A stretch of DNA of 64,000 nucleotides, from positions 672 to 64,671 of the forward strand of contig JAAYLR010000019.1 of assembly GCA_012521815.1 (NCBI GenBank), written 5' to 3'. The notes beneath the pieces were generated by a model, which did not search any database, was not told the origin of the DNA, and saw only the letters and a program-made list of their open reading frames with translations. This DNA is from Acidobacteriota bacterium (lineage in GTDB: Bacteria; Acidobacteriota; Thermoanaerobaculia; Multivoradales; JAGPDF01). Every line of letters begins with the position of its first letter. Position 1 is the first letter of the stretch. Shown in pieces: positions 1,910 to 13,586 of the stretch. Both the position numbers and the translations under genes were made by a program.

Positions 1910-4210
1910 TCAGTTGCAGGGCGTGCCGCTCGCGCCGCGGGCGGCGTCCCAGCGGCAGATGTTCCCCGTCTCGAAGTTATCCGCGAAGAGCGAGGCTGTC
2001 AGATCATCCCTCAGGAGGGAGATGAAGCCGTCCCGATAGCCACCGCCGTAGTTCGTCTGGGCGCCGTTCTGGATCCCGGGCAGATCGTCGAGAGAATCAG
2101 TGTTCCCCCCCACGAAGACCCTGCCTTCGGAGGTTCGAGCCATGGCATGAATCCCATCGGATCCTCCTCCGCCGAGGTAGGTGCTCTGCGCGATGGTCCA
2201 GAAATTTCCGAACCGGCTCAGGTACGAGAGGAAACCGTCGCCGTTGCCACCGCCATAGATCGCCTGGGCGCTGGCGGCGTTGATGCCGGGCAGGTCCGTA
2301 GAAGTGGTACTCCCCGCCACCAGAATGGGGCTCCCAAGCACATTGGGCACTTCGATCAGGGCCTCGATCAGTTCGGCGCCGCTCCCGCCCAGATAGGTGC
2401 TCATGAGGAAGTTCTTCAGATTACCGGACAGTTGGGTGACGAAGCCGTCCCAAATACCGCCGCCGTATTCCGCCTGGGCGCTCCAGGCGGAGATGCCGTG
2501 CAGGTCCGCCGAAGCAGTAAGGCCGCCAACCAGAACGGTGCCTCCGCCCGTCACGATCAGGGCGTTGATACGATCCTCGAAACTCCCGCCCACGTAAGTG
2601 CTCCGAACGACGCTCTTCAGGTCGCCGGCAAGGCGAGAGACGAAGCCGTCCCGGGAGCCTGCGCGAAACTGCTGGGCGCTGTCGAAAACGGCGCCGAGCA
2701 GGCCATCGGATTCGGAGTCGCCCCCCACGATGACGTCGCCATTTCCGGCAAGAGCCAGGGTCGTGATGACGTCATAATCGTTTCCTCCGAGATAGGTGCT
2801 TTGCCAGATCAGGCCCAGGTCCCCCCGGATGCGGGCGACGAAGCCGTCGGCGTTGCCGCTGTAGGTCGGCTGGGCACCGTTCGCCCTCTTGGGCAGGTTC
2901 TCCGACCTGGTAAAGCCGCCCACCACGATGTCACCGTTGTCGGCAATGGCCAAGGCCGTGATCCCATCAGTGCCGCTCCCCCCGAAGTAGGTGCTCCCAT
3001 ACATGAGCGTCAGATCGGATGACAGGCACGAGACGAAGCCGTCCCAGCCACCAGCGTTGGTCTGCTGGGCGCTGCTGGACGTGATGCCGGGAAAGCTCGT
3101 GGAGTCAGTGTAGCCCCCCACCCAGACGACGGGGAACCACCCCGCCTCATTCGGCTCCAGGGCGTTGATTTGATCGGTACCCGCCCCACCCAGGTAGGTG
3201 CTCTGAACGATCGTGCGCAGGTCCCCGGTCAGGCGGGAGACGAAGCCGTCGACGCCGCCGCCATTGGCCGGCTGGGTGCCGCCCATCCTCTTGGGAAAGT
3301 CCGACGAATCCGTGTATCCCGCCACCAGCACGTCACCGTTGGCGGCCAGAGCCAGGGTGTTGACGTAGTCATAGCCGTTCCCCCCCAGGTAGGTGCTCTG
3401 GAGGAGCGGGTCGATCGTCAGCGGTTGCTGCGGGTCGTAGGCGCCGAGAGCAAAGCCCCAGGCCTTCTCCTCGCCGCCGGCCGGAGGTTCGAGGAGCGCG
3501 TAGCGCACCTCGACCGCCCGCCGCTCGCCGCCGATCTCCTGCCACGCCACCGGCGCCGTGTAGGCCAGATCCCCGTTGCCGGTCGTCACCACGAGCCGGC
3601 CGTCGTCCGCAACCGCGAGACGCTCCGCTCCCCGCAGGCCCACCCGGATCCGGGCCGGATCGGCCCCTGGCGCAAGGTGGAAGAGCTTCTCGAAGTTCTG
3701 CCCTCGCGCCGCGAGCTCGACCTCGATCCCCGTCCACGCCTCCCCCAGACGCACCCGCTCCCAGGTGTCCGCCTGGAAGGTCCCCGCCGGGGTGAACCGG
3801 GTCACGTGCGTGACCGCCGCCTCGCTCCCCTGGGGCGAGAGCGGACCGGCGCCGAGCAGGCGCTCCTCGAGCGCCCAGCCCGGACCGCGCTCGGCCCGCT
3901 GCCGCTCCCGCCGGTCCGGATTCGCCGCGGTCGAGCCGCTCGCCGCCACGAGCTCCCGGCCCGGCAGGCTGTAGACGAGCTGCCCCTCGCGCGTGACGAA
4001 GACGGACCCCGCGAACGTCTTCGCCAGGAACGCCACCGCCGGCTCGAACTGCCCCCGGTTCTCCTCGAACGGTACCGTCAGATTGGTCGCCGCCTGCCGC
4101 ACCGTGGCGAGGTCCGGCGCCGGGCTCGTGGCCTCGCTTGCGGCCCCGGCCGCGGCCGCCAGGCCCATCGTCACGATTCCAACGGCCACCGCTCTCCGCG
4201 CTCTGTTCAT
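1910..4210 (-). CDS. Secreted SBBP (seven-bladed beta-propeller, PF06739-type) repeat protein, copy A of a tandem pair
   Basis: ATG at 4210 begins MNRARRAVAVGIVTMGLAAAAGAAS, a signal peptide. There are at least 7 repeats of STYLGG-G-D-I-ALA-NGDV-V-G-T-S-DFP. The C-terminal tail is FADNFETGNICRWDAARGASGTPCN. An RBS GGAGGAAAGGGAGGAG sits upstream. Confidence 0.75.
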   Translation of the reverse strand: MNRARRAVAVGIVTMGLAAAAGAASEATSPAPDLATVRQAATNLTVPFEENRGQFEPAVAFLAKTFAGSVFVTREGQLVYSLPGRELVAASGSTAANPDRRERQRAERGPGWALEERLLGAGPLSPQGSEAAVTHVTRFTPAGTFQADTWERVRLGEAWTGIEVELAARGQNFEKLFHLAPGADPARIRVGLRGAERLAVADDGRLVVTTGNGDLAYTAPVAWQEIGGERRAVEVRYALLEPPAGGEEKAWGFALGAYDPQQPLTIDPLLQSTYLGGNGYDYVNTLALAANGDVLVAGYTDSSDFPKRMGGTQPANGGGVDGFVSRLTGDLRTIVQSTYLGGAGTDQINALEPNEAGWFPVVWVGGYTDSTSFPGITSSSAQQTNAGGWDGFVSCLSSDLTLMYGSTYFGGSGTDGITALAIADNGDIVVGGFTRSENLPKRANGAQPTYSGNADGFVARIRGDLGLIWQSTYLGGNDYDVITTLALAGNGDVIVGGDSESDGLLGAVFDSAQQFRAGSRDGFVSRLAGDLKSVVRSTYVGGSFEDRINALIVTGGGTVLVGGLTASADLHGISAWSAQAEYGGGIWDGFVTQLSGNLKNFLMSTYLGGSGAELIEALIEVPNVLGSPILVAGSTTSTDLPGINAASAQAIYGGGNGDGFLSYLSRFGNFWTIAQSTYLGGGGSDGIHAMARTSEGRVFVGGNTDSLDDLPGIQNGAQTNYGGGYRDGFISLLRDDLTASLFADNFETGNICRWDAARGASGTPCN

Positions 4211-4349
4211 GGCGTTCTCCTCCCTTTCCTCCTCTAACGACAGATCGCCCCCCACGGGGCCAACGGGGCCGGTCGCGGGGGCGGGTCTGTCAGGAAAGGG
4301 GCAGGAGGCGGGGTCGGGAGCTATCCGCAGCCGGTGTCTCTACGGCCGG

Positions 4350-6659
4350 TCAGTGGCAGGGCGTGCCGCTCGCGCCCCGGGCGGCGTCCCAGCGGCAGAT
4401 GTTCCCCGTCTCGAAGCCGTCCGCAAGGAGCGAGGCTGTCAGATCATCCCTCAGGAGGGAGATGAAGCCGTCCCAAGCGCCACCGCCGTAGCTCGCCTGT
4501 GCACCGTTCTGGGTCCCGGGCAGATCGTCGGAAGAATTGGTGTTCCCTCCCACGAAGACCCTGCCGTCGGAGGTCCGAGCCATGGCTTGGATCGGGTCGA
4601 ATTCTCCTCCGCCCAGGTAAGTGCTCTGCGCGATGGTCCAGAAGTTTCCGAACCGGCGCAGGTACGAGAGGAAACCGTCGCTCGCGCCACCACCATAGGT
4701 CGCCTGGGCGCTGGCGGCGTTGATGCCGGGCAGGTCCGTAGAAGAAGTGGTACTCCCCGCCACCAGAATGGGGCTCCCAAGCGCATTTGGCACTTCGACC
4801 AGGGCCCTGATCCAGTCGTCACCGCTCCCGCCCAGATAGGTGCTCATGAGGAAGTTCTTCAGATCACCGGTCAGTTGAGTGACGAAGCCATCCGTATTAC
4901 CGCCGCCGTATTCCGCCTGGGCGCTCCAGGCGGAGATGCCGGGCAGGTCCGCCGAACCGGTGGCGCCTCCGACCCAAACGGTGCCCCCGCTCGTCACGGT
5001 CAGGGCGTTGATATGTTCAACGAAACTCCCGCCCACGTAGGTGCTCCGGACGACGCTCTTCAGGTCCCCGGCAAGGCGAGAGACGAAGCCGTTCTGGAGG
5101 CCTGCGCGAAACTGCTGGGCGCTGCTGGTGCCAGTGCCGAGCAGGCCGTCGGAGGTGGAGTTGCCCCCCACGATGACGTCGCCATTTCCGGCAAGAGCCA
5201 GGGCCCAGATGAAGTCATACTTGTCTCCTCCGATATAGGTGCTCTGCCGGATCAGGCCCAGGTCCCCCCGCAGGCGGGCGACGAAGCCGTCGCTATCGCC
5301 GCCGTAACTCGACTGGGCACCGTTCGCCCTCTTGGGCAGGTTCGCCGACTTGGTATAGCCGCCCACCACGATGTCACCGCCGTCGGCAAGGGCCAGGGTC
5401 TTGATCCCATCATCGCCGCTCCCCCCGTAGTAGGTGCTCCCATACAGGAGCGTCAGATCGGATGACAGGAACGAGACGAAGCCGTCTTTGCCACCAGCGT
5501 TGGTCGGCTGGGCGCGGCTGGACGTAATGCCGGGAAAGTTCGTGGATTCAGTGGAGCCCCCCACCCAGACGACACTGAGCATTCCCCCCTCATTCAGCAC
5601 CAGGGCGGTAATCTCATCGGTACCCGTCCCGCCCAGGTAGGTGCTCTGGATGAGCGTTCGCAGGTCCCCGGTCAGTCGGGCGACGAAGCCGTCGGAGTAG
5701 CCGCCGCCGTAGGCTGGCTGGGCGCCGTTCGTCCTCTTGGGAAAGTTCGGCGAATCCGTTTCACCCGCCACCAGCACGTCACCGTTGGCGGCCAGAGCCA
5801 GAGCGTTGATGTAGTCCCAGCCGCTTCCCCCCAGGTAGGTGCTCTGGAGCAGCGGGTCGATCGTCAGCGGCTGCTGCGGGTCGTAGGCGCCCAGAGCAAA
5901 GCCGTAGGCCTTCTCCTCGCCGCCAGCCGGAGGCTCGAGGAGCGCGTAGCGCACCTCGACCGCCCGCCGCTCGCCGCCGATCTCCTGCCAGGCCACCGGC
6001 GCCGTGTAGGCCAGATCCCCGTTGCCCGTCGTCACCACGAGCCGGCCGTCGTCCGCCACCGCGAGCCGCTCCGCTCCCCGCAGACCCACCCGAATCCGGG
6101 CCGGATCGGCCCCCGGGGCAAGGTGGAACAGTTTCTCGAAGTTCTGCCCCCGCGCCGCGAGCTCGACCACGATCCCCGTCCACGCCTCCCCCAGACGCAC
6201 CCGCTCCCAGGTGTCCGCCTGGAAGGTCCCCGCCGGGGTGAAACGGGTCACATGCGTGACCGCTGCCTCGCTCCCCTGGGGCGAGAGCGGTCCGGTGCCG
6301 AGCAGGCGCTCCTCGAGCGCCCAGCCCGGACCGCGCTCGGCTTGCCGCCGCTCGCGCCGGTCCGGCTTCGCCGCGGGCGAACCGTTCTCCGCCGCCGCGA
6401 GCTCCCGGCCCGGCAGGCTGTAGACGAGCTGCCCCTCACGCGTGACGAAGACCGCACCCGCGAACGTCTTCGCCAGGTAGGCGACCTTCGGCTCGAACTG
6501 CCCCCGGTTCTCCTCGAACGGCACCGCCATCCCGGCCGCCGCCCGCCGCACCGTGGCAAGGTCTGGCGCTGGGCTCGTGGCCTCGCTTGCGGCCCCGGCC
6601 GCGGCCGCCAGGCCCATCGTCACGATTCCAACGGCCACCGCTCTCCGCGCTCTGTTCAT
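4350..6659 (-). CDS. Secreted SBBP beta-propeller repeat protein, copy B, about 90% identical to copy A
   Basis: 769-aa ORF starting MNRARRAVAVG with the same repeat architecture and a ...GFETGNICRWDAARGASGTPCH tail. The upstream and intergenic sequence is also duplicated. Confidence 0.75.
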   Translation of the reverse strand: MNRARRAVAVGIVTMGLAAAAGAASEATSPAPDLATVRRAAAGMAVPFEENRGQFEPKVAYLAKTFAGAVFVTREGQLVYSLPGRELAAAENGSPAAKPDRRERRQAERGPGWALEERLLGTGPLSPQGSEAAVTHVTRFTPAGTFQADTWERVRLGEAWTGIVVELAARGQNFEKLFHLAPGADPARIRVGLRGAERLAVADDGRLVVTTGNGDLAYTAPVAWQEIGGERRAVEVRYALLEPPAGGEEKAYGFALGAYDPQQPLTIDPLLQSTYLGGSGWDYINALALAANGDVLVAGETDSPNFPKRTNGAQPAYGGGYSDGFVARLTGDLRTLIQSTYLGGTGTDEITALVLNEGGMLSVVWVGGSTESTNFPGITSSRAQPTNAGGKDGFVSFLSSDLTLLYGSTYYGGSGDDGIKTLALADGGDIVVGGYTKSANLPKRANGAQSSYGGDSDGFVARLRGDLGLIRQSTYIGGDKYDFIWALALAGNGDVIVGGNSTSDGLLGTGTSSAQQFRAGLQNGFVSRLAGDLKSVVRSTYVGGSFVEHINALTVTSGGTVWVGGATGSADLPGISAWSAQAEYGGGNTDGFVTQLTGDLKNFLMSTYLGGSGDDWIRALVEVPNALGSPILVAGSTTSSTDLPGINAASAQATYGGGASDGFLSYLRRFGNFWTIAQSTYLGGGEFDPIQAMARTSDGRVFVGGNTNSSDDLPGTQNGAQASYGGGAWDGFISLLRDDLTASLLADGFETGNICRWDAARGASGTPCH

Positions 6660-6798
6660 GGCGTTCTCCTCCCTTTCCTCCTCTAACGACAGATCGCCCC
6701 CCGCGGGGCCACCGGGGCCGGTCGCGGCGGCGGGTCTGTCAGGAAAGGGGCAGGAGGCGGGGTCGGGAGCTATCCGCAGCCGGTGTCTCTACGGCCGG

Positions 6799-7255
6799 TC
6801 AGTGGCAGGGCGTGCCGCTCGCGCCCCGGGCGGCGTCCCAGCGGCAGATGTTCCCCGTCTCGAAGCTGTCCGCAAGGAGCGAGGCTGTCAGATCATCCCT
6901 CAGGAGGGAGATGAAGCCGTCCCAGTCGCCACCGCCGTAGTTCGTCTGTGCGCCGTTCTCGCGTCGGGGCGGGTCCGGGGAACTGGTGGTTCCCCCTAAC
7001 ACGACTTCGCCCCCGGGAGTTCGAGCCATGGCAAAGATCCGGTCGTCCAAGCTCCCTCCCGGATGGATGCTCTGCTTGGTAACCGAAAGAGGGCCCAACT
7101 GGCTCAGGTACGAGAGGAAGCTGTCCTCTTTGCCTCCGAGACTCGCCTGGGCGTTGTCGGCGTTGCTGCCGGGCAGGTCCGTGGAAACGGCGCAGCCGGC
7201 GCGCGTCGCCTATCCCCGCGGCCACGCCGCCAACGATGACGACGTGCGGGCTCAT
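6799..7255 (-). pseudogene. Decayed third copy of the SBBP gene. Only the C-terminal ~100 aa is recognisable; upstream repeat sequence is frameshifted and degenerate.
   Basis: ORF 6799..7098 ends ...WDGFISLLRDDLTASLLADSFETGNICRWDAARGASGTPCH, nearly identical to the copy B C-terminus. It lacks the signal peptide and propeller body. Region 7100-7260 retains diverged repeat-like DNA. Confidence 0.5.
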
Positions 7256-7275
7256 ACCCGGACCCGCTCTCGAGG

Positions 7276-8451
7276 CTACGAGCGGACCGCGCGCAGCGAG
7301 GCGATCTCGGCCACGGCGGCGATCGCCGCGTCGATGTGCGCCTGGGTGTTGAACGGCCCGATGCCGAACCGCACCGCGCCGTGGATCTGGTCGGTACCGA
7401 GGTGCTCGTGGACCATCGGTGTGCAGTGCAAGCCGGTGCGGCAGGCGATGTTGTGGTCGACATCGAGCATGGTGCCGGTATCGGCCGCCTCCAGCCCCTC
7501 GACGTTGAACGACAGGACGCTGATCCGCTCTCTTCCCGGTACGTCCTCGGCACAGTAGAGGATCACTCCCGGGACCTCCCGCAGGCCGTCACGCAGGCTG
7601 GTCCACAGACGCATCTCGTGCTCGTGAAGCTTCGCCATGCCTTGCTCGAGCACCCAGTGCACGCCGGCATGCAGCCCGGCGATGCCGGGGAGGTTGGGAG
7701 TGCCGTACTCCATGCGGTACGGGTACTCATCGAGATGGTGGCGCTGGGCGCTCTTGACGCCGGTACCGCCGGCGCGGGTGTGGCGGATCTCCACCCCCTC
7801 GCGTACGTACATCCCGCCGATTCCCATCGGCCCCATCAGGCTCTTGTGGCCGGTGAAGCAGATGACGTCGGCGCCGAGCGTCTCGAGATCGACCGGGACT
7901 ACACCCGCGGTTTGGCTGACGTCGAGGATGAGGTGTACGCCCTGCTCGCGGCAAACCCTGCCGATCGGCGCCACGTCTTGGACGGTGCCGATGACGTTGG
8001 AGCCGTGGTTCATGACCACGGCTCTGGTGCCCGGCGTGATGCGGTCGATCAGCTCCTGCGGGTCGACCCAGCCCTGGGCGTCGAAGTCCACCCAGTCCAC
8101 TTTGACGCCACTCTCGTGCTCGAGCGCCCATAGCGGGCGCAGCGACGAGTTGTGCTCGAGGTGGGTCGTGACCACATGGTCGCCTGGGTTGACGAGGCCG
8201 AAGATCGCCAGGTTGAGCGCGTCGGTGGAGTTGTAGCCGAAGACCAGGCGGTTGGGGTCGGTGCCGCCGAAGAAATCACGCAGCAGCTTGCGCGTTCGGT
8301 CGACCAGCGAGCCGGCCTCGAGGCAGAGGTCGAACCCGCTGCGACCGGGGTTCACCCCGTACTGGCGGTAGAAGGTGTCCATCGCGGTGTACACCACCTC
8401 CGGCTTGGGGAACGAGGTCGCGCCGTTGTCGAGGTAGATCAGGCTGCTCAT
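7276..8451 (-). CDS. Group II cysteine desulfurase (SufS/CsdA-like, aminotransferase class V)
   Basis: Contains the PLP-lysine context HKSLMGPMGIGGMY and an RTGLHCTP catalytic-Cys loop resembling the SufS/CsdA RTGHHCA motif. Its ATG overlaps the upstream gene's stop as ATGA. Confidence 0.8.
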   Translation of the reverse strand: MSSLIYLDNGATSFPKPEVVYTAMDTFYRQYGVNPGRSGFDLCLEAGSLVDRTRKLLRDFFGGTDPNRLVFGYNSTDALNLAIFGLVNPGDHVVTTHLEHNSSLRPLWALEHESGVKVDWVDFDAQGWVDPQELIDRITPGTRAVVMNHGSNVIGTVQDVAPIGRVCREQGVHLILDVSQTAGVVPVDLETLGADVICFTGHKSLMGPMGIGGMYVREGVEIRHTRAGGTGVKSAQRHHLDEYPYRMEYGTPNLPGIAGLHAGVHWVLEQGMAKLHEHEMRLWTSLRDGLREVPGVILYCAEDVPGRERISVLSFNVEGLEAADTGTMLDVDHNIACRTGLHCTPMVHEHLGTDQIHGAVRFGIGPFNTQAHIDAAIAAVAEIASLRAVRS

Positions 8452-9806
8452 GTGGTCGTCTTCCCTTCGCTAGGCGACGGTCCTGCGGTGACCAACGCTT
8501 CGGCCACCATCTCCGCCACGGTCTTGACTTGGATGCCGAGCGTGTACTCTTTGTTGAGCTCCATGAGCTGGTCGATGCAGTTGTGGCACGGCGCCACGAC
8601 GATCTCGGCGCCGGTGGCGCGGATCTGCTGCGCCTTCATGCCTCCGGCGCGGATGCGACGGTCTTTGTAGGCGGCCATCGCGAGCTGCCCGCCGCCGCCT
8701 CCGCAGCAGAAGCTCTGCTCCCGCGACGGGGTCATCTCGACGAAATGCGCCACGCTGCGGCGCAGCACCCGCCGTTGCGGTTCGGAGACGCCGCCATGGC
8801 GCACCAGATTGCATGGGTCGTGGAGCGTCACTGGCTTTGGGTTGCGCGACGGGTCGACCGCGATCCGGCCGCTCGTGAGGTACTCATCCATCAGTTCGAG
8901 CACGCTGCACAGCTCGAACGGATACCGCCGCTGCAGCCACTCAGGCCCCTCCCAGCGGGCGGAGCCAAAGCCGTGGCCGCACTCGCCGATGACGAGCGTC
9001 GTGCACCCCAGCCGCTCCATGGCGTCCACGAGGTTCTGCGTGATCCGACCGGCCTGCTCGTCGTTGCAGTTGAACAGCCCGTAGTTGGTGAGATCCCAGC
9101 CGGGGTCTGAGGCGAGTGTCCAGTCCTCGCCGGCCGCCCAGAACACCTTGGCCGAGGCCTGCAGGCTGAGGGGGAAGAACTTGGGCTCGCGAGGGTTGAC
9201 GGTGAACAGCACCCTGGCGCCCTGCTTGTCGAGCGGTATGCGGGCACCGGGATCGCCGGTCTCCATCTGCAGCTCCTCCTCGAGCCACTGCACGGTGTCG
9301 ACCCAGTCCTCCTTGGTGATCGCCATGTTGTTGCCGTGGACGAGGCTGTTGTCGACCGTGGCCTGCAGGTCGTCGGGCACCAGGCCCATGGCCGCCAGCG
9401 CCGCGCGGGCGGCGCGGAACACGCGCGGCAGACCGATCCCGATGGTGCAGTTGAGCGAGCAGCGCCCACACAGCGTGCAGCGCCCGAACACGGAGTCGAG
9501 CCAGGCCCGCACCATCGCACGGTCGAACGGTCGAGCGCCGACGAGCCGGGGCACGAGACGCCCGGCGGTGGTGAAGTGACGCTTGAAAGCCGCAGCGACG
9601 TGATCGAGCTTGCGTGCCGGGACGTTCTCGAGTGCCGGCTCGGTGCGATAGTAGTGGCAGCTATCGGCGCACAGGCCGCAGTGAACGCAGGCGTTGAGGT
9701 ACGCCGCCTCGGCCGCACGCAGCTTGGATCGAAACACCTCCAAGCCGTGCCGAAGCTGCGCCTCGGTGAGGGCGTCGATCCGCTCCTCGAGGCTCGCCAT
9801 GCTCAA
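8448..9806 (-). CDS. HdrD/DsrK/GlpC-like iron-sulfur oxidoreductase with two [4Fe-4S] ferredoxin motifs and two CCG domains
   Basis: CVHCGLCADSC and CTLCGRCSLNC are Cx2Cx2Cx3C motifs. FCCGGGGG....PCHNC is a CCG-domain signature. Stop-start overlaps occur at both ends. Confidence 0.75.
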   Translation of the reverse strand: MSMASLEERIDALTEAQLRHGLEVFRSKLRAAEAAYLNACVHCGLCADSCHYYRTEPALENVPARKLDHVAAAFKRHFTTAGRLVPRLVGARPFDRAMVRAWLDSVFGRCTLCGRCSLNCTIGIGLPRVFRAARAALAAMGLVPDDLQATVDNSLVHGNNMAITKEDWVDTVQWLEEELQMETGDPGARIPLDKQGARVLFTVNPREPKFFPLSLQASAKVFWAAGEDWTLASDPGWDLTNYGLFNCNDEQAGRITQNLVDAMERLGCTTLVIGECGHGFGSARWEGPEWLQRRYPFELCSVLELMDEYLTSGRIAVDPSRNPKPVTLHDPCNLVRHGGVSEPQRRVLRRSVAHFVEMTPSREQSFCCGGGGGQLAMAAYKDRRIRAGGMKAQQIRATGAEIVVAPCHNCIDQLMELNKEYTLGIQVKTVAEMVAEALVTAGPSPSEGKTTT

Positions 9807-10432
9807 CGCCCCTGCCGCGCCGACGGGAACGTGCCGCGATAGCCGAAGAAGGCCCCCATGTATGCGCGTGAGCTGAAGAAAACGACGCAGTGGCGGATCT
9901 TACCGACCGGCAGGTAGACGAGGAGCACGACGGCGGTGATGAGCCACGCCGACTCGAGCTGCGGATGCAGCAAGGTCACAGCTGCAAGCGCCCCGAACGA
10001 GGTCGTCAACAGGTTGGCAATGAAGTCGTCGGGGGAGGAGAGACCCCGCAGGAACGGCGTCGCGATGCGCTTGACGAGCAGCGCTAGCCCAGCTCCTGCC
10101 CCAGCCAGCATCACGATCGCTCCGGTCGGTGCCAGCGCTGGCGGCAGCTCGAACCCGGCCACCGTTGCAGCCAGCAGGCCGAACGCCACGAAGGTGCCGA
10201 GGTGAAAGACGATCCCGGTCGCGTACGAGGGAAGGTGCATGCGGACGCTCTCCTTGGCCCACGGCAGCATCGCCGCCGTGAACGCGTACCGCACGCCGGC
10301 CGCGGGGTCGCCGGCCGGCGGGGCAAGCAGGACCCGTCGCCCGAAGCCGCGTACCCCCAGCCACACCCAGGCCAGCGTCCCGGCTGCCCAAGCCGCAGCC
10401 GCGATCACCGCGAGGTGGAGCGGCTGATCCAT
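9803..10432 (-). CDS. Integral membrane protein, probable dihaem cytochrome b anchor of the NarI/DsrM/HdrE type
   Basis: Start at MDQPLHLAVIAAAAW. About 210 aa with 5-6 predicted TM helices. A His pair RMHLPSYATGIVFHL sits in one helix and a second His pair (LLHPQ...KIRHC) in a later helix, reminiscent of NarI-like haem ligation. It is translationally coupled to the HdrD-like gene. Confidence 0.5.
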   Translation of the reverse strand: MDQPLHLAVIAAAAWAAGTLAWVWLGVRGFGRRVLLAPPAGDPAAGVRYAFTAAMLPWAKESVRMHLPSYATGIVFHLGTFVAFGLLAATVAGFELPPALAPTGAIVMLAGAGAGLALLVKRIATPFLRGLSSPDDFIANLLTTSFGALAAVTLLHPQLESAWLITAVVLLVYLPVGKIRHCVVFFSSRAYMGAFFGYRGTFPSARQGR

Positions 10433-10440
10433 GTGTGTGC

Positions 10441-10761
10441 TCAGACGCAGCCGTCGGGCTTGGGCAGGCCGGCGAGCTTGCAGGCGCCCTTGGCCGGGCC
10501 GCTCGGGAACAGCTCGTAGATGCGCTTGAGCGGCAAGCCCGTTGTCTTGCAGATGAGACGCACCATCGGGGCCGCCTGGTTCTCGAGGTAGTACTGGCGG
10601 ATGAACCGGATGACCGCCCAGTGCTGCTCGTCGAGCGCCGGCAACCCCTCCTCCTGCCTGGCGAGCGCCAGGGCAAGGTCGTCGTTCCACACGCCCGGAT
10701 CGACGAGGAACCCCTCGGGGTTCAGCTCCACCTGCCTGCCGTCAAGGTTGATCATCGCCAT
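10441..10761 (-). CDS. dsrC: DsrC/TusE-family sulfur-carrier protein with both conserved cysteines (DsrC type)
   Basis: 106 aa ending ...FPSGPAKGACKLAGLPKPDGCV. The penultimate Cys plus a second Cys 10 residues upstream is the DsrC hallmark. An HW..IRFIRQYY core is present. The start is MAMINLDG. Confidence 0.8.
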   Translation of the reverse strand: MAMINLDGRQVELNPEGFLVDPGVWNDDLALALARQEEGLPALDEQHWAVIRFIRQYYLENQAAPMVRLICKTTGLPLKRIYELFPSGPAKGACKLAGLPKPDGCV

Positions 10762-10809
10762 GACGCCTCCGGGAGCGCCGCGTCGTGCGGCCGTCCTCGT
10801 GTGGTAGTT

Positions 10810-10841
10810 TGTATGCATGATCTAGGGAATTGTGTGCATGA
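10810..10841. promoter_or_regulatory. Direct repeat TGTATGCATGA ... TGTGTGCATGA (21 bp centre-to-centre) in the dsrC-mocR divergent intergenic region. Candidate MocR operator.
   Basis: Two 11-bp copies with 1 mismatch, seen directly. The second copy overlaps the GTG/ATG start region of the MocR gene. Confidence 0.3.
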
Positions 10842-12196
10842 CAATCTGGCTCCCCGACATCGCCGAACGGAAGCAGCCCGCCTACCAAGCGATTGTCGAG
10901 GCCATCGCCGACGCCGTCCGGCAGGGATGCCTGCGTCCCGGCGACCGGCTGCCCACGCACCGACTGCTCGCCGACCTGCTGGGGGTGAACGTCAGCACCG
11001 TGACTCGCGCGTACCGTGAGGCAGCGCGGCGCCGCCTGCTCGGCGGGGAGGTGGGGCGCGGCACGTACGTGCTGGGCGTGGCCTCCGAGGCGGCGCTGTT
11101 CGCGCTCGAGCAGCGGCCGGAGGGCGGGGTCATCGACCTCTCGCCCAACACGCCCCCCGCGCTGCTGTGTGACCCCGACCTCGCGGCTGCGCTTGGGGGG
11201 ATCGACGAGCGCGAGGCCGCTCGGCTCCTCCACTACCCGACCACGGCCGACGCGCTGCAGCACGCGCACGCAGCGGCTGGATGGCTCGGCCGGCGCGGTG
11301 TCGGCGCAGAGCCCGACAGCATCGTCGTCTGCGCCGGGGCGCAGCACGCGATGGACTCGGCCCTCGGTGCCTTCCAGGAGAGCGACGAGGTCGGCTGCGA
11401 GCCGCTCGTCTACCCCGGGCTCAAGGCTGCAGCGCGGCGGTGGCGACGGCGTTTGCACCCGATAGCGATGGACGGAGAAGGGGTTGCGCCCGGGGCGTTC
11501 GAGGCTGCGTGTCGGGCTGGAGTGCGCCTTGTCGTACTGTCGCCGACGCTGCACAACCCCACCACCGTGACGATGGGCTTCGATCGCCGGCAGCGGCTCG
11601 CTGAGCTCGCGCGCCGCTATGACGTCGTCATCATCGAGGAGGACGTCTACGGCCTCCTGCCGGACCACACGCCGCCGCCACTTGCAGCGCTCGCGCCCGA
11701 GCGCGTGCTGTACCTCACGGGGCTGTCTAAGACCGTGGCGCCGGGCCTGCGCATCGGTTACCTCGTCGTTCCCTCCCGGTTGAAGGAGAGGATGCGCGAC
11801 GCCTCGCATCACACGGCGTGGTACGTCTCGCCGATCTCGGCCGCGCTGGCCACCCGCTGGCTGGGTGACGGCACCGCCTGGCGCCGCCTGCTCGCGCAGC
11901 GCCGGGAGCTCACTGCCCGCCACCGCCTGTGCGCACGCCACCTCGCGGGGCTTGCCTGGCGGGGCGAGTCGCACTGCCCGCACGTCTGGCTCGATCTCCC
12001 ACCTGGACGCTCACCGGCGTTCGCCAGGCAGGCCCTGGCCGCCGGCGTGGTCGTGGTGCCGTCGGCAGTGTTCGCCGTCGGCCGCGCCACTGCCGACGGG
12101 GTGCGCATCTCGCTCGGCGCGGCTGCCGATCGCGCCAGCCTCGCCGAGGCGCTCGCCCGCCTCGCGGCGTTGCCGGCCGGGCAGCGGGAGAGCTGA
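10832..12196 (+). CDS. MocR-family transcriptional regulator (GntR wHTH fused to an aminotransferase-like PLP domain)
   Basis: The N-terminus YQAIVEAIADAVRQGCLRPGDRLPTHRLLADLLGVNVSTVTRAYREA is a GntR HTH, followed by ~350 aa of aminotransferase-fold. It is divergent from the dsrC operon. The true start may be the ATG at 10838. Confidence 0.8.
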   Translation: MCMTIWLPDIAERKQPAYQAIVEAIADAVRQGCLRPGDRLPTHRLLADLLGVNVSTVTRAYREAARRRLLGGEVGRGTYVLGVASEAALFALEQRPEGGVIDLSPNTPPALLCDPDLAAALGGIDEREAARLLHYPTTADALQHAHAAAGWLGRRGVGAEPDSIVVCAGAQHAMDSALGAFQESDEVGCEPLVYPGLKAAARRWRRRLHPIAMDGEGVAPGAFEAACRAGVRLVVLSPTLHNPTTVTMGFDRRQRLAELARRYDVVIIEEDVYGLLPDHTPPPLAALAPERVLYLTGLSKTVAPGLRIGYLVVPSRLKERMRDASHHTAWYVSPISAALATRWLGDGTAWRRLLAQRRELTARHRLCARHLAGLAWRGESHCPHVWLDLPPGRSPAFARQALAAGVVVVPSAVFAVGRATADGVRISLGAAADRASLAEALARLAALPAGQRES

Positions 12197-12289
12197 CGGT
12201 CAACGCGGGTCGACAGCGCGCGGCCTGCGGCGGATCAGCGCGAAGGCGAGCAGGGCGAACGCGGCGCGCGGCCGGCGCCAGCGGACGGC

Positions 12290-13059
12290 GCTGCCCGGCA
12301 AGCGTGGTCCCAAGACGCGGCATTCCGACGCCGAGCTGCTCGCGCGAATCCGCCAGGTGCTGGCGACTTCCGAATGGGTCGGCGAAGGGCACCGCAAAGC
12401 CTGGGCCCGACTGCGTGCTGAGGGCGTGCGCACCTCCAAGCCGCGCGTGCTGCGTTTGCTGCGCGAGGCGAACCTGCTGACACCGACCCGCACCGGAGCG
12501 CCGCACGGGCCACGGGCCCATGACGGCAAGATCACCACCGAGCGACCCGACGAGATTGGGGCACCGACGGCACGACGACGATGACCGGCGAGGGCCAAGC
12601 GACGATCTTCGTCGTGGTCGACCATTGCCCGAGCGAGTGCCTGGGCCTCCACGCCACGGCTCGCGGCAACCGCTTCGAAGCGCTCGAGCCGGTGCGCCAG
12701 GCCGTCACCGAGGTCTTCGGTGGGGTCGACGAGAAGATCGCGGCGGGCGTCCTGCTGCGCCACGACCACGGCAGCGTCTACACGTCCGAGGTTTTCAGCG
12801 CGAGATCCGCTTCCTCGGCCTCGAGTCGAGCTCGGCCTTCGTGCGCGCGCCCGAGGGCAATGGCTGTGCCGAGCGCTTCATCCGCACGCTCAAGGAGCAG
12901 CTGCTCTGGCTGCGCTTCTTTCCGGCCGTCGCCGAGCTCAACGCTGCGCTCGCCGACTTCCGCGGGCGCTACAACCATCGCTGGCGACTCGAGCGGCATG
13001 ACTACCGGGCCCCAGCCGAGGTCCGTGCCGCCTTCATGGCACTCGAGACCGCAGCTTGA
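12290..13059 (+). mobile_element. Degenerate rve-family (IS481/IS3-like) transposase remnant, 5'-truncated and frameshifted across three frames
   Basis: Frame 0 gives ...KRGPKTRHSDAELLARIRQVLATSEWVGEGHRKAWARLRAEGVRTSKPRVLRLLREANLL. Frame 2 gives IFVVVDHCPSECLGLHATARGNRFEALEPV...LRHDHGSVYTSEVF. Frame 1 gives FLGLESSSAFVRAPEGNGCAERFIRTLKEQLLWLRFF...YNHRWRLERHDYRAPAEV. These are classic integrase-core segments with no N-terminal HTH. Confidence 0.65.
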
Positions 13060-13094
13060 ATACACTCACGAAACTGTCCGGGAAATCGCAGGCG

Positions 13095-13586
13095 CTACGA
13101 CATCGCCTTCACCTGCTGCAGGATCTCGTTCGCGAGCTCTTCCCGGAGCCGTTCATAGGCCGACTCGAGGGATTCCTCGGGGGTGATGCTCTGATTCTCT
13201 TTCTCTTCGGTGGCTACGCTCTCCGAGGCTGAACGGTCGCGCCTGGTCGTGTGAAACTCACGAAACGCCTCGAACTGCATGAGGAAGCGGGTACTGAGGC
13301 GATCCGGATTTTCGGCGAGCACCTGGCGGCCGAGATCCGCGATGGCGTAATGCCCGCGGCGAGTGCTCTTCAACAGGCCGGCCCTGGTGAGGTAGGTACG
13401 TGCCCAGCTGACCCGGTTGTCGAGGATCGGCTGATAACCGCTCGGCAGGAGCTCCTTGCGCTCTGCCTCGGTCAATCGGAAATGGTCGGCGAGAGCGTCG
13501 ATCGATTCCCGCAGTGAGTGCTCCTTGCCGTCTCCCGCGAACTGCAGGAGCGGCAGCATGGTGGACTGGAAATCAGGGATCGCCAC
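13095..13586 (-). pseudogene. mrr: Truncated mrr: Mrr N-terminal winged-helix domain plus linker only. The catalytic restriction-endonuclease domain is missing.
   Basis: The 163-aa product MAIPDFQSTMLPLLQFAGDGKEHSLRESIDALADHFRLTEAERKELLPSGYQPILDNRVSWARTYLTRAGLL matches Mrr_N. It ends ...ELANEILQQVKAMS* exactly where Mrr_cat (P.FFE..V.DLL) should begin. The IS remnant abuts it about 35 bp away. Confidence 0.65.

What the first reader, a model, noticed from the sequence alone, without database searches (positions are those of the whole stretch)
7276..12196. Compact DsrC/TusE + dihaem-b anchor + HdrD/DsrK-like CCG protein + cysteine desulfurase operon under a divergent MocR regulator
Four minus-strand genes are chained by 4-bp ATGA overlaps or an 8-bp gap, transcribed dsrC-like, then membrane anchor, then HdrD/DsrK-like, then group-II cysteine desulfurase. 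The DsrC-like protein has both the penultimate Cys and the Cys 10 residues upstream (GACKLAGLPKPDGCV), the hallmark of true DsrC rather than single-Cys TusE. The Fe-S protein has the 2x[4Fe-4S] plus 2xCCG architecture of DsrK/HdrD, the enzymes that reduce the DsrC trisulfide or a heterodisulfide. Physical linkage of a DsrMK-like pair, its DsrC substrate and a SufS/CsdA-type persulfide generator in one translationally coupled unit is not a described arrangement. It suggests a membrane-linked route in which cysteine-derived persulfide is loaded onto the DsrC arm and processed by the CCG enzyme using the quinone pool. A PLP-binding MocR regulator and a direct-repeat operator candidate lie divergently upstream.
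Basis: partly seen in the sequence, partly recalled or inferred. Interest (0 to 1): 0.7.

Follow-up and report, generated by a model that had tools for sequence, protein, structure and literature searches.

The report
DsrC, membrane reductase, cysteine desulfurase operon
A four-gene operon joins a cysteine-desulfurating enzyme, a genuine DsrC sulfur-carrier protein and a DsrMK-like membrane redox complex; it is conserved in about 45 anaerobe species and I found no paper describing it, and it probably turns cysteine sulfur into sulfide with electrons from the quinone pool.

Summary

**The genes** (minus strand, Thermoanaerobaculaceae MAG):
- Two-cysteine DsrC, 106 aa.
- NarI-fold membrane protein, 209 aa.
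- DsrK/HmcF/TmcB-type Fe-S protein, 450 aa.
- TIGR01977 cysteine desulfurase, 391 aa.
- A divergent MocR regulator, with two conserved direct repeats over the promoter.

**Corrections:**
- Only one junction is an ATGA overlap.
- The Fe-S protein has one CCG motif plus a GECGH cysteine (DsrK type), not two (HdrD type).
- The anchor conserves three histidines, not four, so two haems are unproven.

**Conservation across 56 species-representative genomes:**
- DsrC lies next to the membrane gene in 45 of 52 informative loci.
- The desulfurase follows in 42 of 44.
- Carriers include Thermoanaerobaculia, Holophagae (including cultured Geothrix limicola), Aminicenantes and Eisenbacteria.
- Related membrane/Fe-S pairs sit beside DsrE/TusA carriers instead.
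- One protein is a natural fusion of both subunits.

**Best explanation (inferred, 0.45):** desulfurase persulfide passes to DsrC Cys105. The DsrK-like site reduces it to sulfide with quinol electrons. Net: cysteine + 2[H] gives alanine + H2S.

No paper describing the module was found. Absence of DsrAB from these genomes could not be tested. Verdict: new variant of a known kind, interest 0.64.

The parts
10441..10761 (-). dsrC-like gene: 106-aa sulfur-carrier protein with CysB (C94) and penultimate CysA (C105). GGAGG ribosome-binding site 4 nt upstream of the ATG.
   Evidence: PF04358 1.4e-34. TIGR03342 106 bits against a 53.5 cut-off; TusE equivalog 77 against 191, not met. Best solved relatives are DsrC subunits of DsrAB complexes (2xsj_C 2e-30, about 49% identity), while the TusE-like 7syb scores only 37 bits. 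Both Cys are kept in 46 of 47 orthologues and all end in PKPDGCV. Start and RBS read.
9803..10432 (-). Membrane anchor: 209 aa, five predicted transmembrane helices, NarI fold. Conserved H66, H77 and H181. Starts 8 bp after the dsrC stop.
8448..9800 (-). Cytoplasmic Fe-S subunit of DsrK/HmcF/TmcB type, 450 aa. Two [4Fe-4S] motifs (C38/41/44/48 and C108/111/114/118), GECGH (C274, H276), and one CCG motif for a non-cubane cluster (C330, C365, C366, C405, C408).
   Evidence: PF02754 CCG, one stretch, 1.6e-11; Fer4_8. HmcF 307, TmcB 301 and DsrK 222 bits, all below the equivalog cut-offs. All motif cysteines sit in columns that are at least 70% conserved, most at least 95%, in 52 orthologues. Motif meaning from PMC10861901 and bioRxiv 10.64898/2026.08.25.746951. 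The ATG start at 9800 follows the membrane gene's TGA by 2 nt.
7276..8451 (-). Type II (SufS/CsdA-like) cysteine desulfurase family protein, 391 aa. PLP lysine K203 (GHKS) and catalytic cysteine C343 (GLHCTP). ATGA overlap with the CCG gene.
   Evidence: PF00266 1e-84. TIGR01977 390 bits against a 377 cut-off; SufS 239 against 475; SclA 288 against 525. Best solved relative is the Thermococcus onnurineus cysteine desulfurase 5b7s, 2e-58. K203 lies in a column at least 95% conserved and C343 in one at least 70% conserved, among 45 orthologues. Overlap read.
10762..10837 (.). 76-bp divergent control region with two direct repeats CATGCAYACAA in a 21-bp register (10830-10840 and 10809-10819, minus strand). 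They overlap a sigma-70-like promoter for the dsrC operon: -35 TTGTCA at 10844-10839 and -10 GATCAT at 10822-10817. The first repeat abuts the MocR start codon.
   Evidence: The pattern occurs twice in 64 kb with 0 expected. GCACACAAT and GCAYACAAAAT boxes keep the same register in 28 related intergenic regions. The promoter-like site is the only one found in 5.5 kb; it is a consensus match only.
10838..12196 (+). MocR-type regulator, 452 aa: GntR winged helix plus a PLP-aminotransferase-fold effector domain containing an SKT motif (S297-K298-T299). Divergent from the operon.
   Evidence: PF00392 and PF00155. Closest to the EhuR model, 417 bits, below the 480 cut-off. Divergent orthologue present in 26 of 46 informative loci. 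The SKT motif and flanking residues are conserved in 29 sequences; that K298 is the PLP-binding lysine is inferred from the motif, not tested.

Best explanation
The operon encodes a self-contained route that takes the sulfur atom of L-cysteine and reduces it to sulfide at the membrane.

**Proposed steps**
1. The PLP enzyme converts L-cysteine to L-alanine and keeps the sulfur as a persulfide on its Cys343.
2. The persulfide passes to CysA (Cys105) on the flexible C-terminal arm of the DsrC protein. DsrC would act here as the dedicated acceptor that type II desulfurases need, the role SufE, SufU or CsdE play elsewhere.
3. The arm inserts into the DsrK-like subunit. [quoted passage not shown] Alternatively, CysB (Cys94) first expels HS- and the resulting DsrC disulfide is reduced.
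4. The two electrons come from (mena)quinol through the NarI-fold haem-b anchor and the two cubane clusters. DsrC returns as the dithiol.

Net reaction: cysteine + QH2 gives alanine + H2S + Q. This is a reductive cysteine desulfuration that can serve as an electron sink.

My own calculation from remembered Thauer (1977) formation energies gives Cys + H2 -> Ala + H2S at about -60 kJ/mol, so E0' is about -105 mV. That is close to menaquinone (-74 mV).

In Thermoanaerobaculia and Holophagae a MocR regulator, bound to two direct repeats over the promoter, is inferred to switch the operon in response to an amino compound of the pathway.

**Shown:** the gene identities, motifs, fold, operon structure, conservation and linkage.
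**Inferred:** every transfer step, the direction of electron flow, the substrate, the quinone and the effector.
For: - All four proteins carry the residues needed for the proposed chemistry, and these are conserved in 45-52 orthologues. They are the desulfurase K203 and C343, DsrC C94 and C105, and the CCG protein's two cubane motifs, GECGH and one full CCG motif.
- DsrC is of the true DsrC type, not TusE. It carries the AGLPKPxGC arm that DiSCo uses to separate DsrC from TusE/RspA (PMC8477390).
- The module is inherited as a unit. DsrC is adjacent in 45 of 52 loci and the desulfurase in 42 of 44. Identities to the window co-vary with r = 0.72-0.97.
- Tight spacing (8-bp gap, 2-nt gap, ATGA overlap) and a single upstream promoter-like site fit one transcript.
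- The membrane and Fe-S subunits occur as one fused polypeptide in P0253. The anchor folds like NarI and the EtfD b-domain.
- Relatives of the same pair sit behind other sulfane-sulfur carriers: ArsR + DrsE_2 in L054 and L059, and ArsR + DrsE_2 + TusA in L065. The pair therefore recurrently partners protein persulfide carriers.
- In authentic DsrK the GECGH cysteine is seen persulfidated and is proposed as a relay from DsrC CysA to the cluster. A CysA-bound S-S-OH species is also a competent substrate (bioRxiv 10.64898/2026.08.25.746951). A CysA persulfide is therefore a chemically close substrate.
- DsrMK without JOP is proposed to oxidise quinol at DsrM.
- A CysK/CysM-like gene is linked to the module in about 10 loci, and in the divergent L066, in three different positions. 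This ties the module to cysteine metabolism.
Against: - No biochemical or expression data exist for any member.
- Direct transfer from a desulfurase to DsrC has no precedent. Known DsrC/TusE proteins are loaded by DsrEFH or TusBCD.
- The anchor conserves three, not four, candidate haem histidines. H66 is Asn in 8% of members. Haem content and the position of any quinol site are therefore unknown.
- With menaquinol the reaction is roughly isoenergetic (my estimate is +6 kJ/mol under standard conditions), so little or no energy could be conserved at this step.
- The desulfurase is convergent, and so separately transcribed, in 10 of 42 loci. No CSD match was found in the 767 bp that follow the CCG gene in the held KSB1 locus L063.
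- A linked cysteine synthase-like gene is odd for a pathway that destroys cysteine.
- Whether these genomes also carry DsrAB, which would give DsrC its ordinary job, could not be tested. None is present among the 20 large ORFs scanned in the 64-kb window.
Confidence: 0.45

Rival explanations
1. Same parts, different amino-acid substrate. The class-V PLP enzyme would act on selenocysteine, cysteine sulfinate, S-sulfocysteine or cystine/thiocysteine rather than free cysteine. DsrC and the membrane reductase would then process the released selenium, sulfite/thiosulfate-level sulfur or persulfide.
For: - The enzyme also scores 288 bits on the selenocysteine lyase SclA model and matches CsdA, which is also a cysteine sulfinate desulfinase.
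- TIGR01977 is a 'hypothetical equivalog' with no assigned substrate.
- The linked CysK/CysM-like gene could make S-sulfocysteine or a persulfide amino acid.
- The MocR regulator resembles EhuR, which senses non-proteinogenic amino compounds.
Against: - The catalytic cysteine sits in a column at least 70% conserved. Sulfinate desulfination and cystine lyase chemistry do not need it.
- SclA and CsdA scores lie far below their cut-offs, whereas TIGR01977 is passed.
- There are no selenium-handling genes (selD, yedE/yedF) among the conserved neighbours.
Confidence: 0.17
2. Biosynthetic sulfur relay. The desulfurase and the DsrC/TusE-family protein would supply sulfur for a thio-cofactor, tRNA thiolation or Fe-S assembly. 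The membrane CCG complex would only re-reduce oxidised DsrC or provide the two electrons that turn S0 into S2-.
For: - The only demonstrated desulfurase-initiated route to this protein family, in which sulfur reaches TusE through TusA and TusBCD, is the biosynthetic IscS-TusA-TusBCD-TusE relay (established knowledge; PMC3397948 found).
- The module occurs once per locus and is small.
Against: - The protein fails the TusE equivalog (77 against 191 bits). It carries both DsrC cysteines and the DsrC arm motif.
- No thiouridylase, MoaD/ThiS-type or Fe-S scaffold gene is conserved nearby.
- A quinone-linked membrane reductase and a MocR-type regulator are typical of energy or catabolic pathways.
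Confidence: 0.13
3. The module runs oxidatively. DsrC persulfide made from cysteine would be oxidised by the DsrMK-like complex, with electrons going to quinone, for example to a DsrC trisulfide. This would feed a sulfur-oxidising or DsrAB-dependent pathway encoded elsewhere.
For: - Oxidation of persulfidated DsrC by DsrMKJOP is the step proposed for reverse-Dsr sulfur oxidisers (discussion in PMC6018796).
- Some Thermoanaerobaculia carry dsrAB (PMC8528874).
- Holophaga foetida is reported to have a dissimilatory sulfite reductase (PMC8841776).
Against: - No dsrAB, dsrEFH, dsrL, apr or sat lies in the window or among the conserved neighbours.
- Of the 21 acidobacterial genomes surveyed in PMC8841776, a set that includes Geothrix fermentans and Thermoanaerobaculum aquaticum, only Holophaga foetida was scored as having a dissimilatory sulfite reductase.
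- The family with dsrAB (FEB-10) is not the window's family.
Confidence: 0.1
4. Sulfide-catalysed reduction of serine. A CysK-like enzyme would make cysteine from serine or O-acetylserine plus H2S. The module would reduce that cysteine to alanine and regenerate H2S, so the net reaction is serine + 2[H] -> alanine + H2O, a strongly exergonic electron sink.
For: - A CysK/CysM-like PALP gene is linked in about 10 loci and in L066, in several positions.
- My own estimate from remembered formation energies is Ser + H2 -> Ala + H2O at about -98 kJ/mol.
Against: - The PALP gene is absent from most loci, including the window.
- The idea rests purely on linkage and thermodynamics.
- CysK is a common housekeeping gene.
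Confidence: 0.07

Closest known systems
DsrC with DsrMK / DsrMKJOP (terminal step of dissimilatory sulfite reduction)
   Same: - Two-cysteine DsrC with the AGLPKPxGCV arm.
- A cytoplasmic subunit with two cubane clusters, one CCG non-cubane site and the GECGH cysteine and histidine.
- A NarI-fold membrane partner.
- The minimal two-subunit form resembles the 'DsrMK only' complexes proposed to oxidise quinol at DsrM.
   Different: - No DsrAB, DsrJOP, DsrD or DsrN in the locus. The sulfur donor encoded alongside is a cysteine desulfurase.
- The DsrK equivalog score is 222 against a 400 cut-off.
- The last CCG ligand is Cys (C408), not the Asp of the DsrK of DsrMKJOP.
- The anchor conserves only three histidines and misses the Pfam NarI/DsrM model.
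- The arm reads PKPDGCV, not PKPTGCV.
HmcEF and TmcCB modules of Desulfovibrio transmembrane complexes
   Same: - These are the best-scoring models for both subunits: HmcF 307 and TmcB 301 bits; HmcE 1e-9 and TmcC 3e-8.
- One CCG motif plus the T/GECGH cysteine.
- Their cytoplasmic substrate has long been suspected to be DsrC.
   Different: - No cytochrome c or periplasmic subunits (HmcA-D, TmcA, TmcD).
- Scores lie far below the equivalog cut-offs of 750, 735, 275 and 240.
- Found in organisms not known as sulfate reducers.
HdrED heterodisulfide reductase of Methanosarcina
   Same: A two-subunit membrane complex: a b-type cytochrome plus a CCG Fe-S subunit that reduces a disulfide with a membrane quinone-like carrier.
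   Different: HdrD has two CCG motifs and two non-cubane clusters, and acts on the small molecule CoM-S-S-CoB. Here there is one CCG motif and a protein substrate is implied.
Type II desulfurase-acceptor pairs (SufS-SufE/SufU, CsdA-CsdE) and the IscS-TusA-TusBCD-TusE relay
   Same: A SufS/CsdA-like PLP enzyme with a catalytic cysteine is encoded next to a small cysteine-bearing carrier. TusE belongs to the same protein family as DsrC.
   Different: - The carrier is DsrC-type with two cysteines.
- No SufE, SufU, CsdE, TusA or TusBCD intermediary is present.
- The module is coupled to a membrane redox complex rather than to a biosynthetic sulfur acceptor.
Mycobacterial EtfD (9ojn) and the ArsR-DrsE_2-(TusA)-anchor-CCG clusters found here
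   Different: EtfD takes electrons from ETF to quinone and has no sulfur carrier. The DrsE_2/TusA clusters lack both DsrC and the desulfurase.

Membership tests
DsrC (DsrC/TusE/RspA family, PF04358 / TIGR03342) | Passes the family models | tested here: met
   PF04358 119 bits against 24.9. TIGR03342 106 bits against 53.5.
DsrC (DsrC/TusE/RspA family, PF04358 / TIGR03342) | Penultimate CysA plus CysB 11 positions upstream, within the AGLPKPxGC arm motif absent from TusE/RspA | tested here: met
   C94 and C105 in GACKLAGLPKPDGCV. Both Cys are present in 46 of 47 orthologues.
DsrC (DsrC/TusE/RspA family, PF04358 / TIGR03342) | Works with DsrAB encoded in the same genome | not testable with these tools
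   No dsrAB among 20 large ORFs of the window or among conserved neighbours of 56 loci. Whole genomes could not be searched.
TusE (NF008562 equivalog) | Reaches the equivalog cut-off | tested here: not met
   77.5 bits against a 191 cut-off. The TusE-like structure 7syb scores only 37 bits, against 85-109 bits for DsrC structures.
DsrK / HmcF / TmcB (single-CCG disulfide/trisulfide reductase subunits) | Two CxxCxxCxxxC motifs, one CXnCCGXnCxxC motif, and a conserved cysteine in T/GECGH | tested here: met
   C38/41/44/48, C108/111/114/118, C274 in GECGH, C330/C365/C366/C405/C408. All lie in conserved columns in 52 orthologues. Criteria from PMC10861901.
DsrK / HmcF / TmcB (single-CCG disulfide/trisulfide reductase subunits) | Reaches an NCBIfam equivalog cut-off | tested here: not met
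   HmcF 307 against 750, TmcB 301 against 735, DsrK 222 against 400. It is a separate branch of the family.
HdrD | Two complete CCG motifs (two non-cubane clusters) | tested here: not met
   One Pfam CCG stretch, residues 326-413. The N-terminal site retains only C274.
NarI / DsrM / HmcE-type dihaem cytochrome b anchor | NarI fold with five transmembrane helices | tested here: met
NarI / DsrM / HmcE-type dihaem cytochrome b anchor | Four conserved histidines ligating two haems b | tested here: not met
   Only H66 (90%), H77 (100%) and H181 (98%) are conserved in 232 members. No fourth His column exceeds 25%. One bis-His haem is plausible; a second haem would need a non-His or missing sixth ligand.
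NarI / DsrM / HmcE-type dihaem cytochrome b anchor | Sequence match to PF02665 or to the HmcE/TmcC equivalogs | tested here: not met
   No Pfam hit. HmcE 38 bits against 275, TmcC 34 bits against 240. A profile search of PDB sequences found nothing.
Cysteine desulfurase, type II (TIGR01977 branch) | Passes the family model, with the PLP lysine and catalytic cysteine present | tested here: met
   TIGR01977 390 bits against 377. K203 in GHKS and C343 in GLHCTP align with cysteine desulfurase 5b7s.
Cysteine desulfurase, type II (TIGR01977 branch) | Desulfurase activity on L-cysteine with persulfide formation | not testable with these tools
   Needs an enzyme assay. The SufS (239 against 475), CsdA and SclA models are not reached.
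MocR subfamily of GntR regulators | N-terminal GntR wHTH, C-terminal fold-type-I aminotransferase domain with a PLP lysine, and repeat operator | tested here: met
   PF00392 and PF00155. An SKT motif, taken to hold the PLP lysine K298, is conserved. Two direct repeats in a 21-bp register are conserved in 28 loci. The EhuR exception model is not reached (417 against 480), so the effector is unknown.

The most novel reading that the evidence does not exclude
Free L-cysteine would be a respiratory electron acceptor in widespread anaerobic Acidobacteriota (Holophagae/Geothrix, Thermoanaerobaculia, Aminicenantes) and some other phyla. A dedicated desulfurase would load its sulfur on a DsrAB-independent DsrC. 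A minimal DsrMK-type complex would reduce that sulfur with quinol, giving alanine + H2S. This would be the first physiological role for a true DsrC outside sulfite reduction or sulfur oxidation. It would also be the first defined substrate for the HmcEF/TmcCB-like branch of CCG reductases. Together with the linked CysK-like enzyme, it might even work as a sulfide-catalysed serine-to-alanine reductase.
Probability: 0.25. Interest if true: 0.85.

Novelty: new variant of a known kind. Interest (0 to 1): 0.64.

Why it matters
- **A DsrC outside sulfite metabolism.** DsrC and DsrMK are treated as markers of DsrAB-dependent sulfite reduction or sulfur oxidation. Tools such as DiSCo use them that way. 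Here the same carrier and reductase are wired to a cysteine desulfurase, in about 45 species mostly not known as sulfate or sulfite reducers. Such genes may therefore be mis-read in metagenomes.
- **A new source of biogenic sulfide.** The module points to a membrane-linked, possibly energy-relevant route from organic sulfur to sulfide. These organisms (Geothrix, Holophaga, Thermoanaerobaculia, Aminicenantes) are abundant in sediments, peat, groundwater and digesters, and such sulfide would also affect iron reduction.
- **A simple test system.** It offers a four-protein system for the persulfide and trisulfide chemistry of DsrK-type enzymes. It could also address the long-open question of what HmcF/TmcB-like subunits reduce.
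- **A tractable carrier.** A cultured carrier exists: Geothrix limicola Red804, locus L047.

Tried and rejected
- **Start codon.** The exact-protein look-up with the TTG start (452 aa) found nothing, whereas public gene calls on contigs carrying the same operon use the 450-aa ATG product. This favours the ATG at 9800.
- **Locus search.** The 11-sequence A2 worked.
- **Anchor against PDB sequences.** A profile search with the membrane family gave only noise with E above 0.2. The relationship to NarI shows up only by fold.
- **Distant anchor relatives.** The representative-library search listed only close family members in its top 150. The haem assignment therefore rests on conservation, predicted helices and analogy to NarI.
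- **RNA elements.** Rfam found nothing at E <= 0.1 in 6500-13500, so no riboswitch or leader RNA is evident.
- **Other conserved neighbours.** All-against-all clustering of ORFs from 56 loci found none beyond the four genes, MocR and a CysK-like gene. D-aminoacylase, cupin, prenyltransferase-like and folK genes are lineage-specific.
- **Chance juxtaposition.** Rejected on the conservation data.
- **TusE identity and HdrD identity.** Both rejected on the model scores and motifs.
- **DsrAB in carrier genomes.** This could not be tested.

Full report
**1. What is in the sequence**

ORF listing and direct reading of the junctions show four genes on the minus strand:
- dsrC-like, 10761..10441, 106 aa. 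A GGAGG sits 4 nt before the ATG.
- A membrane protein, 10432..9803, 209 aa.
- A CCG iron-sulfur protein, 9800..8448, 450 aa.
- A class-V aminotransferase-fold protein, 8451..7276, 391 aa.

A regulator is read divergently from 10838 to 12196 (452 aa).

Public gene calls on five contigs that carry identical proteins give the same five products. They place the window in a Thermoanaerobaculaceae metagenome-assembled genome, GCA_029553565.1.

The spacing between genes is:
- dsrC to membrane gene: an 8-bp gap.
- Membrane gene to CCG gene: TGAgcATG, a 2-nt gap. The 452-aa TTG version was not found by exact look-up.
- CCG gene to desulfurase: an ATGA overlap.

**2. Identity of each part**

*DsrC-like protein*
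- It passes PF04358 and TIGR03342 and fails the TusE equivalog.
- Its best solved relatives are the DsrC subunits crystallised with DsrAB (2xsj_C at 2e-30, 52 of 106 identical). A TusE-like sulfurtransferase scores only 37 bits.
- Cys94 and Cys105 lie in GACKLAGLPKPDGCV.

*Fe-S protein*
- It has two CxxCxxCxxxC motifs, a GECGH motif (C274) and one complete CCG motif (C330, C365/C366, C405/C408).
- According to PMC10861901 and the 2026 cryo-EM preprint, one CCG motif plus the GECGH cysteine is the signature of DsrK, HmcF and TmcB. HdrD has two CCG motifs.
- NCBIfam ranks HmcF (307 bits), TmcB (301) and DsrK (222) first, all below their equivalog cut-offs. The protein is a separate branch of that family.

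*Membrane protein*
- It has no Pfam hit and only weak HmcE/TmcC similarity.
- In 232 family members only H66 (90%), H77 (100%) and H181 (98%) are conserved.
- By position in the predicted helices and by analogy with NarI (my inference), H66 and H181 lie at the cytoplasmic boundary of helices 2 and 5. H77 lies about ten residues deeper. The partner expected on helix 5 for a second bis-His haem is missing.

*PLP enzyme*
- It passes TIGR01977 ('cysteine desulfurase family protein') and resembles SufS/CsdA-type desulfurases.
- It has the PLP lysine (K203) and the catalytic cysteine (C343).

*Regulator*
- It is a MocR-type GntR/aminotransferase fusion, closest to EhuR but below that model's cut-off.

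**3. Is the linkage more than chance?**

I scanned one genome per species (GTDB representatives) with conserved peptides of the membrane protein. This returned 56 loci. tblastn with the five window proteins gave the following:

| Feature | Loci with it / informative loci |
|---|---|
| DsrC immediately upstream | 45 / 52 |
| Desulfurase immediately downstream of the CCG gene | 42 / 44 (32 co-directional, 10 convergent) |
| Divergent MocR | 26 / 46 |

- By record title, carriers are Thermoanaerobaculia, Holophagae (including the isolate Geothrix limicola Red804 and two Candidatus Geothrix species), Aminicenantes, Candidatus Eisenbacteria, and MAGs labelled Eubacteriales, Solibacteraceae and Deltaproteobacteria.
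- Identities to the window co-vary between the four proteins, r = 0.72-0.97 over 39 loci.
- All-against-all clustering of the flanking ORFs found no other widely conserved neighbour except a CysK/CysM-like PALP gene in about 10 loci.
- That PALP gene turns up again in a more divergent metagenomic locus, L066.
- Catalytic and ligand residues of all four proteins are conserved across orthologues.
- One database protein, P0253 (670 aa), is a natural fusion of the membrane subunit to the CCG subunit. The two therefore form one enzyme, with the Fe-S part on the cytoplasmic side.

**4. Independent clue to the role of the membrane/CCG pair**

- In more distant members (Chloroflexota loci L054 and L059, and metagenomic L065) the same pair is not preceded by DsrC.
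- Instead it follows an ArsR-family regulator and a DrsE_2 (DsrE-like) protein, and in L065 also a TusA.
- DsrE and TusA are, like DsrC, carriers of protein-bound sulfane sulfur (established knowledge; PMC3397948).
- A KSB1 locus has DsrC-anchor-CCG, and tblastn found no desulfurase match in the 767 bp that follow the CCG gene in the held locus.
- The common denominator is therefore a quinone-linked CCG enzyme that partners a sulfur-carrier protein.

**5. Regulation**

- The 76-bp divergent region holds two direct repeats, CATGCACACAA and CATGCATACAA, 21 bp apart. These are the only two matches in the window, with none expected.
- The same two boxes keep this register in 28 related intergenic regions, while the rest of the spacer is free to vary.
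- They overlap the only sigma-70-like promoter match for the operon, and the first abuts the regulator's start codon.
- This fits a MocR operator that gives effector-dependent control and autoregulation. The effector is unknown.

**6. Mechanism**

The best-supported reading has three steps:
- The desulfurase makes a persulfide from L-cysteine and releases alanine.
- DsrC Cys105 accepts the persulfide.
- The DsrK-like site reduces it to sulfide, using two electrons from quinol through the anchor and the cubane clusters.

The recent DsrMKJOP structures make the last step plausible:
- The DsrC arm extends into DsrK.
- A CysA-bound S-S-OH species is a competent substrate.
- The GECGH cysteine is seen persulfidated and is proposed as a relay.
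- JOP-less DsrMK complexes are predicted to oxidise quinol at DsrM.

My own estimate from remembered Thauer formation energies is Cys + H2 -> Ala + H2S at about -60 kJ/mol, giving E0' of about -105 mV. The reaction is far easier than S0 reduction and roughly isoenergetic with menaquinol. It could therefore serve as an electron sink, but with little energy conserved at this step.

None of these steps has been shown. What is shown is identity, conservation and linkage.

**7. Rivals**

- A different amino-acid substrate: selenocysteine, cysteine sulfinate, S-sulfocysteine or cystine.
- A biosynthetic TusE-like relay.
- Operation in the oxidative direction, feeding a DsrAB encoded elsewhere.
- A sulfide-catalysed serine-to-alanine reduction using the linked CysK-like enzyme.

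The main gap is that I could not search whole carrier genomes for dsrAB:
- None is present among 20 large ORFs of the window or among conserved neighbours.
- A comparative study of 21 acidobacterial genomes, a set that includes Geothrix fermentans and Thermoanaerobaculum aquaticum, scored only Holophaga foetida as having a dissimilatory sulfite reductase (PMC8841776).
- Some Thermoanaerobaculia of another family do carry dsrAB (PMC8528874).

**8. Comparison with what is known, and novelty**

- The parts belong to known families: DsrC; the DsrK/HmcF/TmcB branch of CCG proteins; the NarI-fold anchor; type II desulfurases; MocR.
- The combination is what is new. A true DsrC and a minimal DsrMK-like complex are coupled to a cysteine desulfurase.
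- Nine completed full-text searches found no paper describing it. Term searches inside four Dsr papers also found nothing: the DsrMKJOP paper, the DsrMKJOP structure preprint, the Dsr evolution survey and DiSCo.
- I rate it a new variant of a known kind, with interest 0.64.
- It is conserved, clean and testable in a cultured organism. It touches two open questions: DsrC function outside Dsr, and the substrate of HmcF/TmcB-like enzymes. Its function remains inferred.

Noticed in passing
L054 6591-9870; L059 511-3674; L065 141-3230: Distant relatives of the anchor/CCG pair are preceded by an ArsR-family HTH gene and a DrsE_2 (DsrE-like) gene, plus TusA in L065, instead of DsrC and a desulfurase. 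This looks like a second, apparently undescribed module built on the same reductase, perhaps a persulfide-responsive one.
   Followed up: partly
L030 7206-8276, L013, L023, L027, L028, L032, L033, L036, L052, L057; L066 4435-5538: A CysK/CysM-like PALP gene is linked to the module in about 10 species and in a divergent metagenomic locus. It scores TIGR01136 307 bits and cysK 292 bits, both below their cut-offs. It lies after the desulfurase, after the CCG gene or before dsrC. Its role next to a cysteine-consuming enzyme is unexplained.
   Followed up: partly
P0253 (670 aa; no window coordinates): A natural single-polypeptide fusion of the membrane anchor (residues 7-209) with the CCG subunit (41% identical to the window protein). 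It has SPCGHG in place of GECGHG.
   Followed up: partly
window 10441-10761 and 47 orthologues: All module DsrC proteins end in PKPDGCV rather than the canonical PKPTGCV, which could serve as a signature of this subfamily. One orthologue has Ala in place of CysB (KGAAKLAGLPKPDGCV). A third cysteine, C71, sits in a column at least 95% conserved.
   Followed up: no
window 1910-4255, 4350-6659, 6799-7255: Two tandem paralogous genes for DUF7948 beta-propeller proteins (781 and 769 aa) lie here. The 300-nt direct repeats at their ends are 93-96% identical with a period of about 2.45 kb. A truncated third copy, with the same C-terminal ...GNICRWDAARGASGTPCH tail, sits directly downstream of the desulfurase.
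   Followed up: partly
window 12200-13586: A broken insertion-sequence remnant (rve_3 integrase core, split over overlapping frames) and a truncated Mrr_N-domain ORF lie just beyond the MocR gene. Related contigs (L001, L003) carry PAP2 and EptA-like genes at this position, so this is strain-level rearrangement beside the operon. L004 and L006 have a Transposase_mut gene nearby.
   Followed up: partly
window 9803-10432, residues K60-E61-S62, R122, R129, S132, D135-D136, K178, R180, R189, R199: The most conserved residues of the anchor, other than the histidines, cluster in the predicted cytoplasmic loops and the C-terminal amphipathic helix. This is probably the docking surface for the CCG subunit. 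It was not modelled.
   Followed up: no
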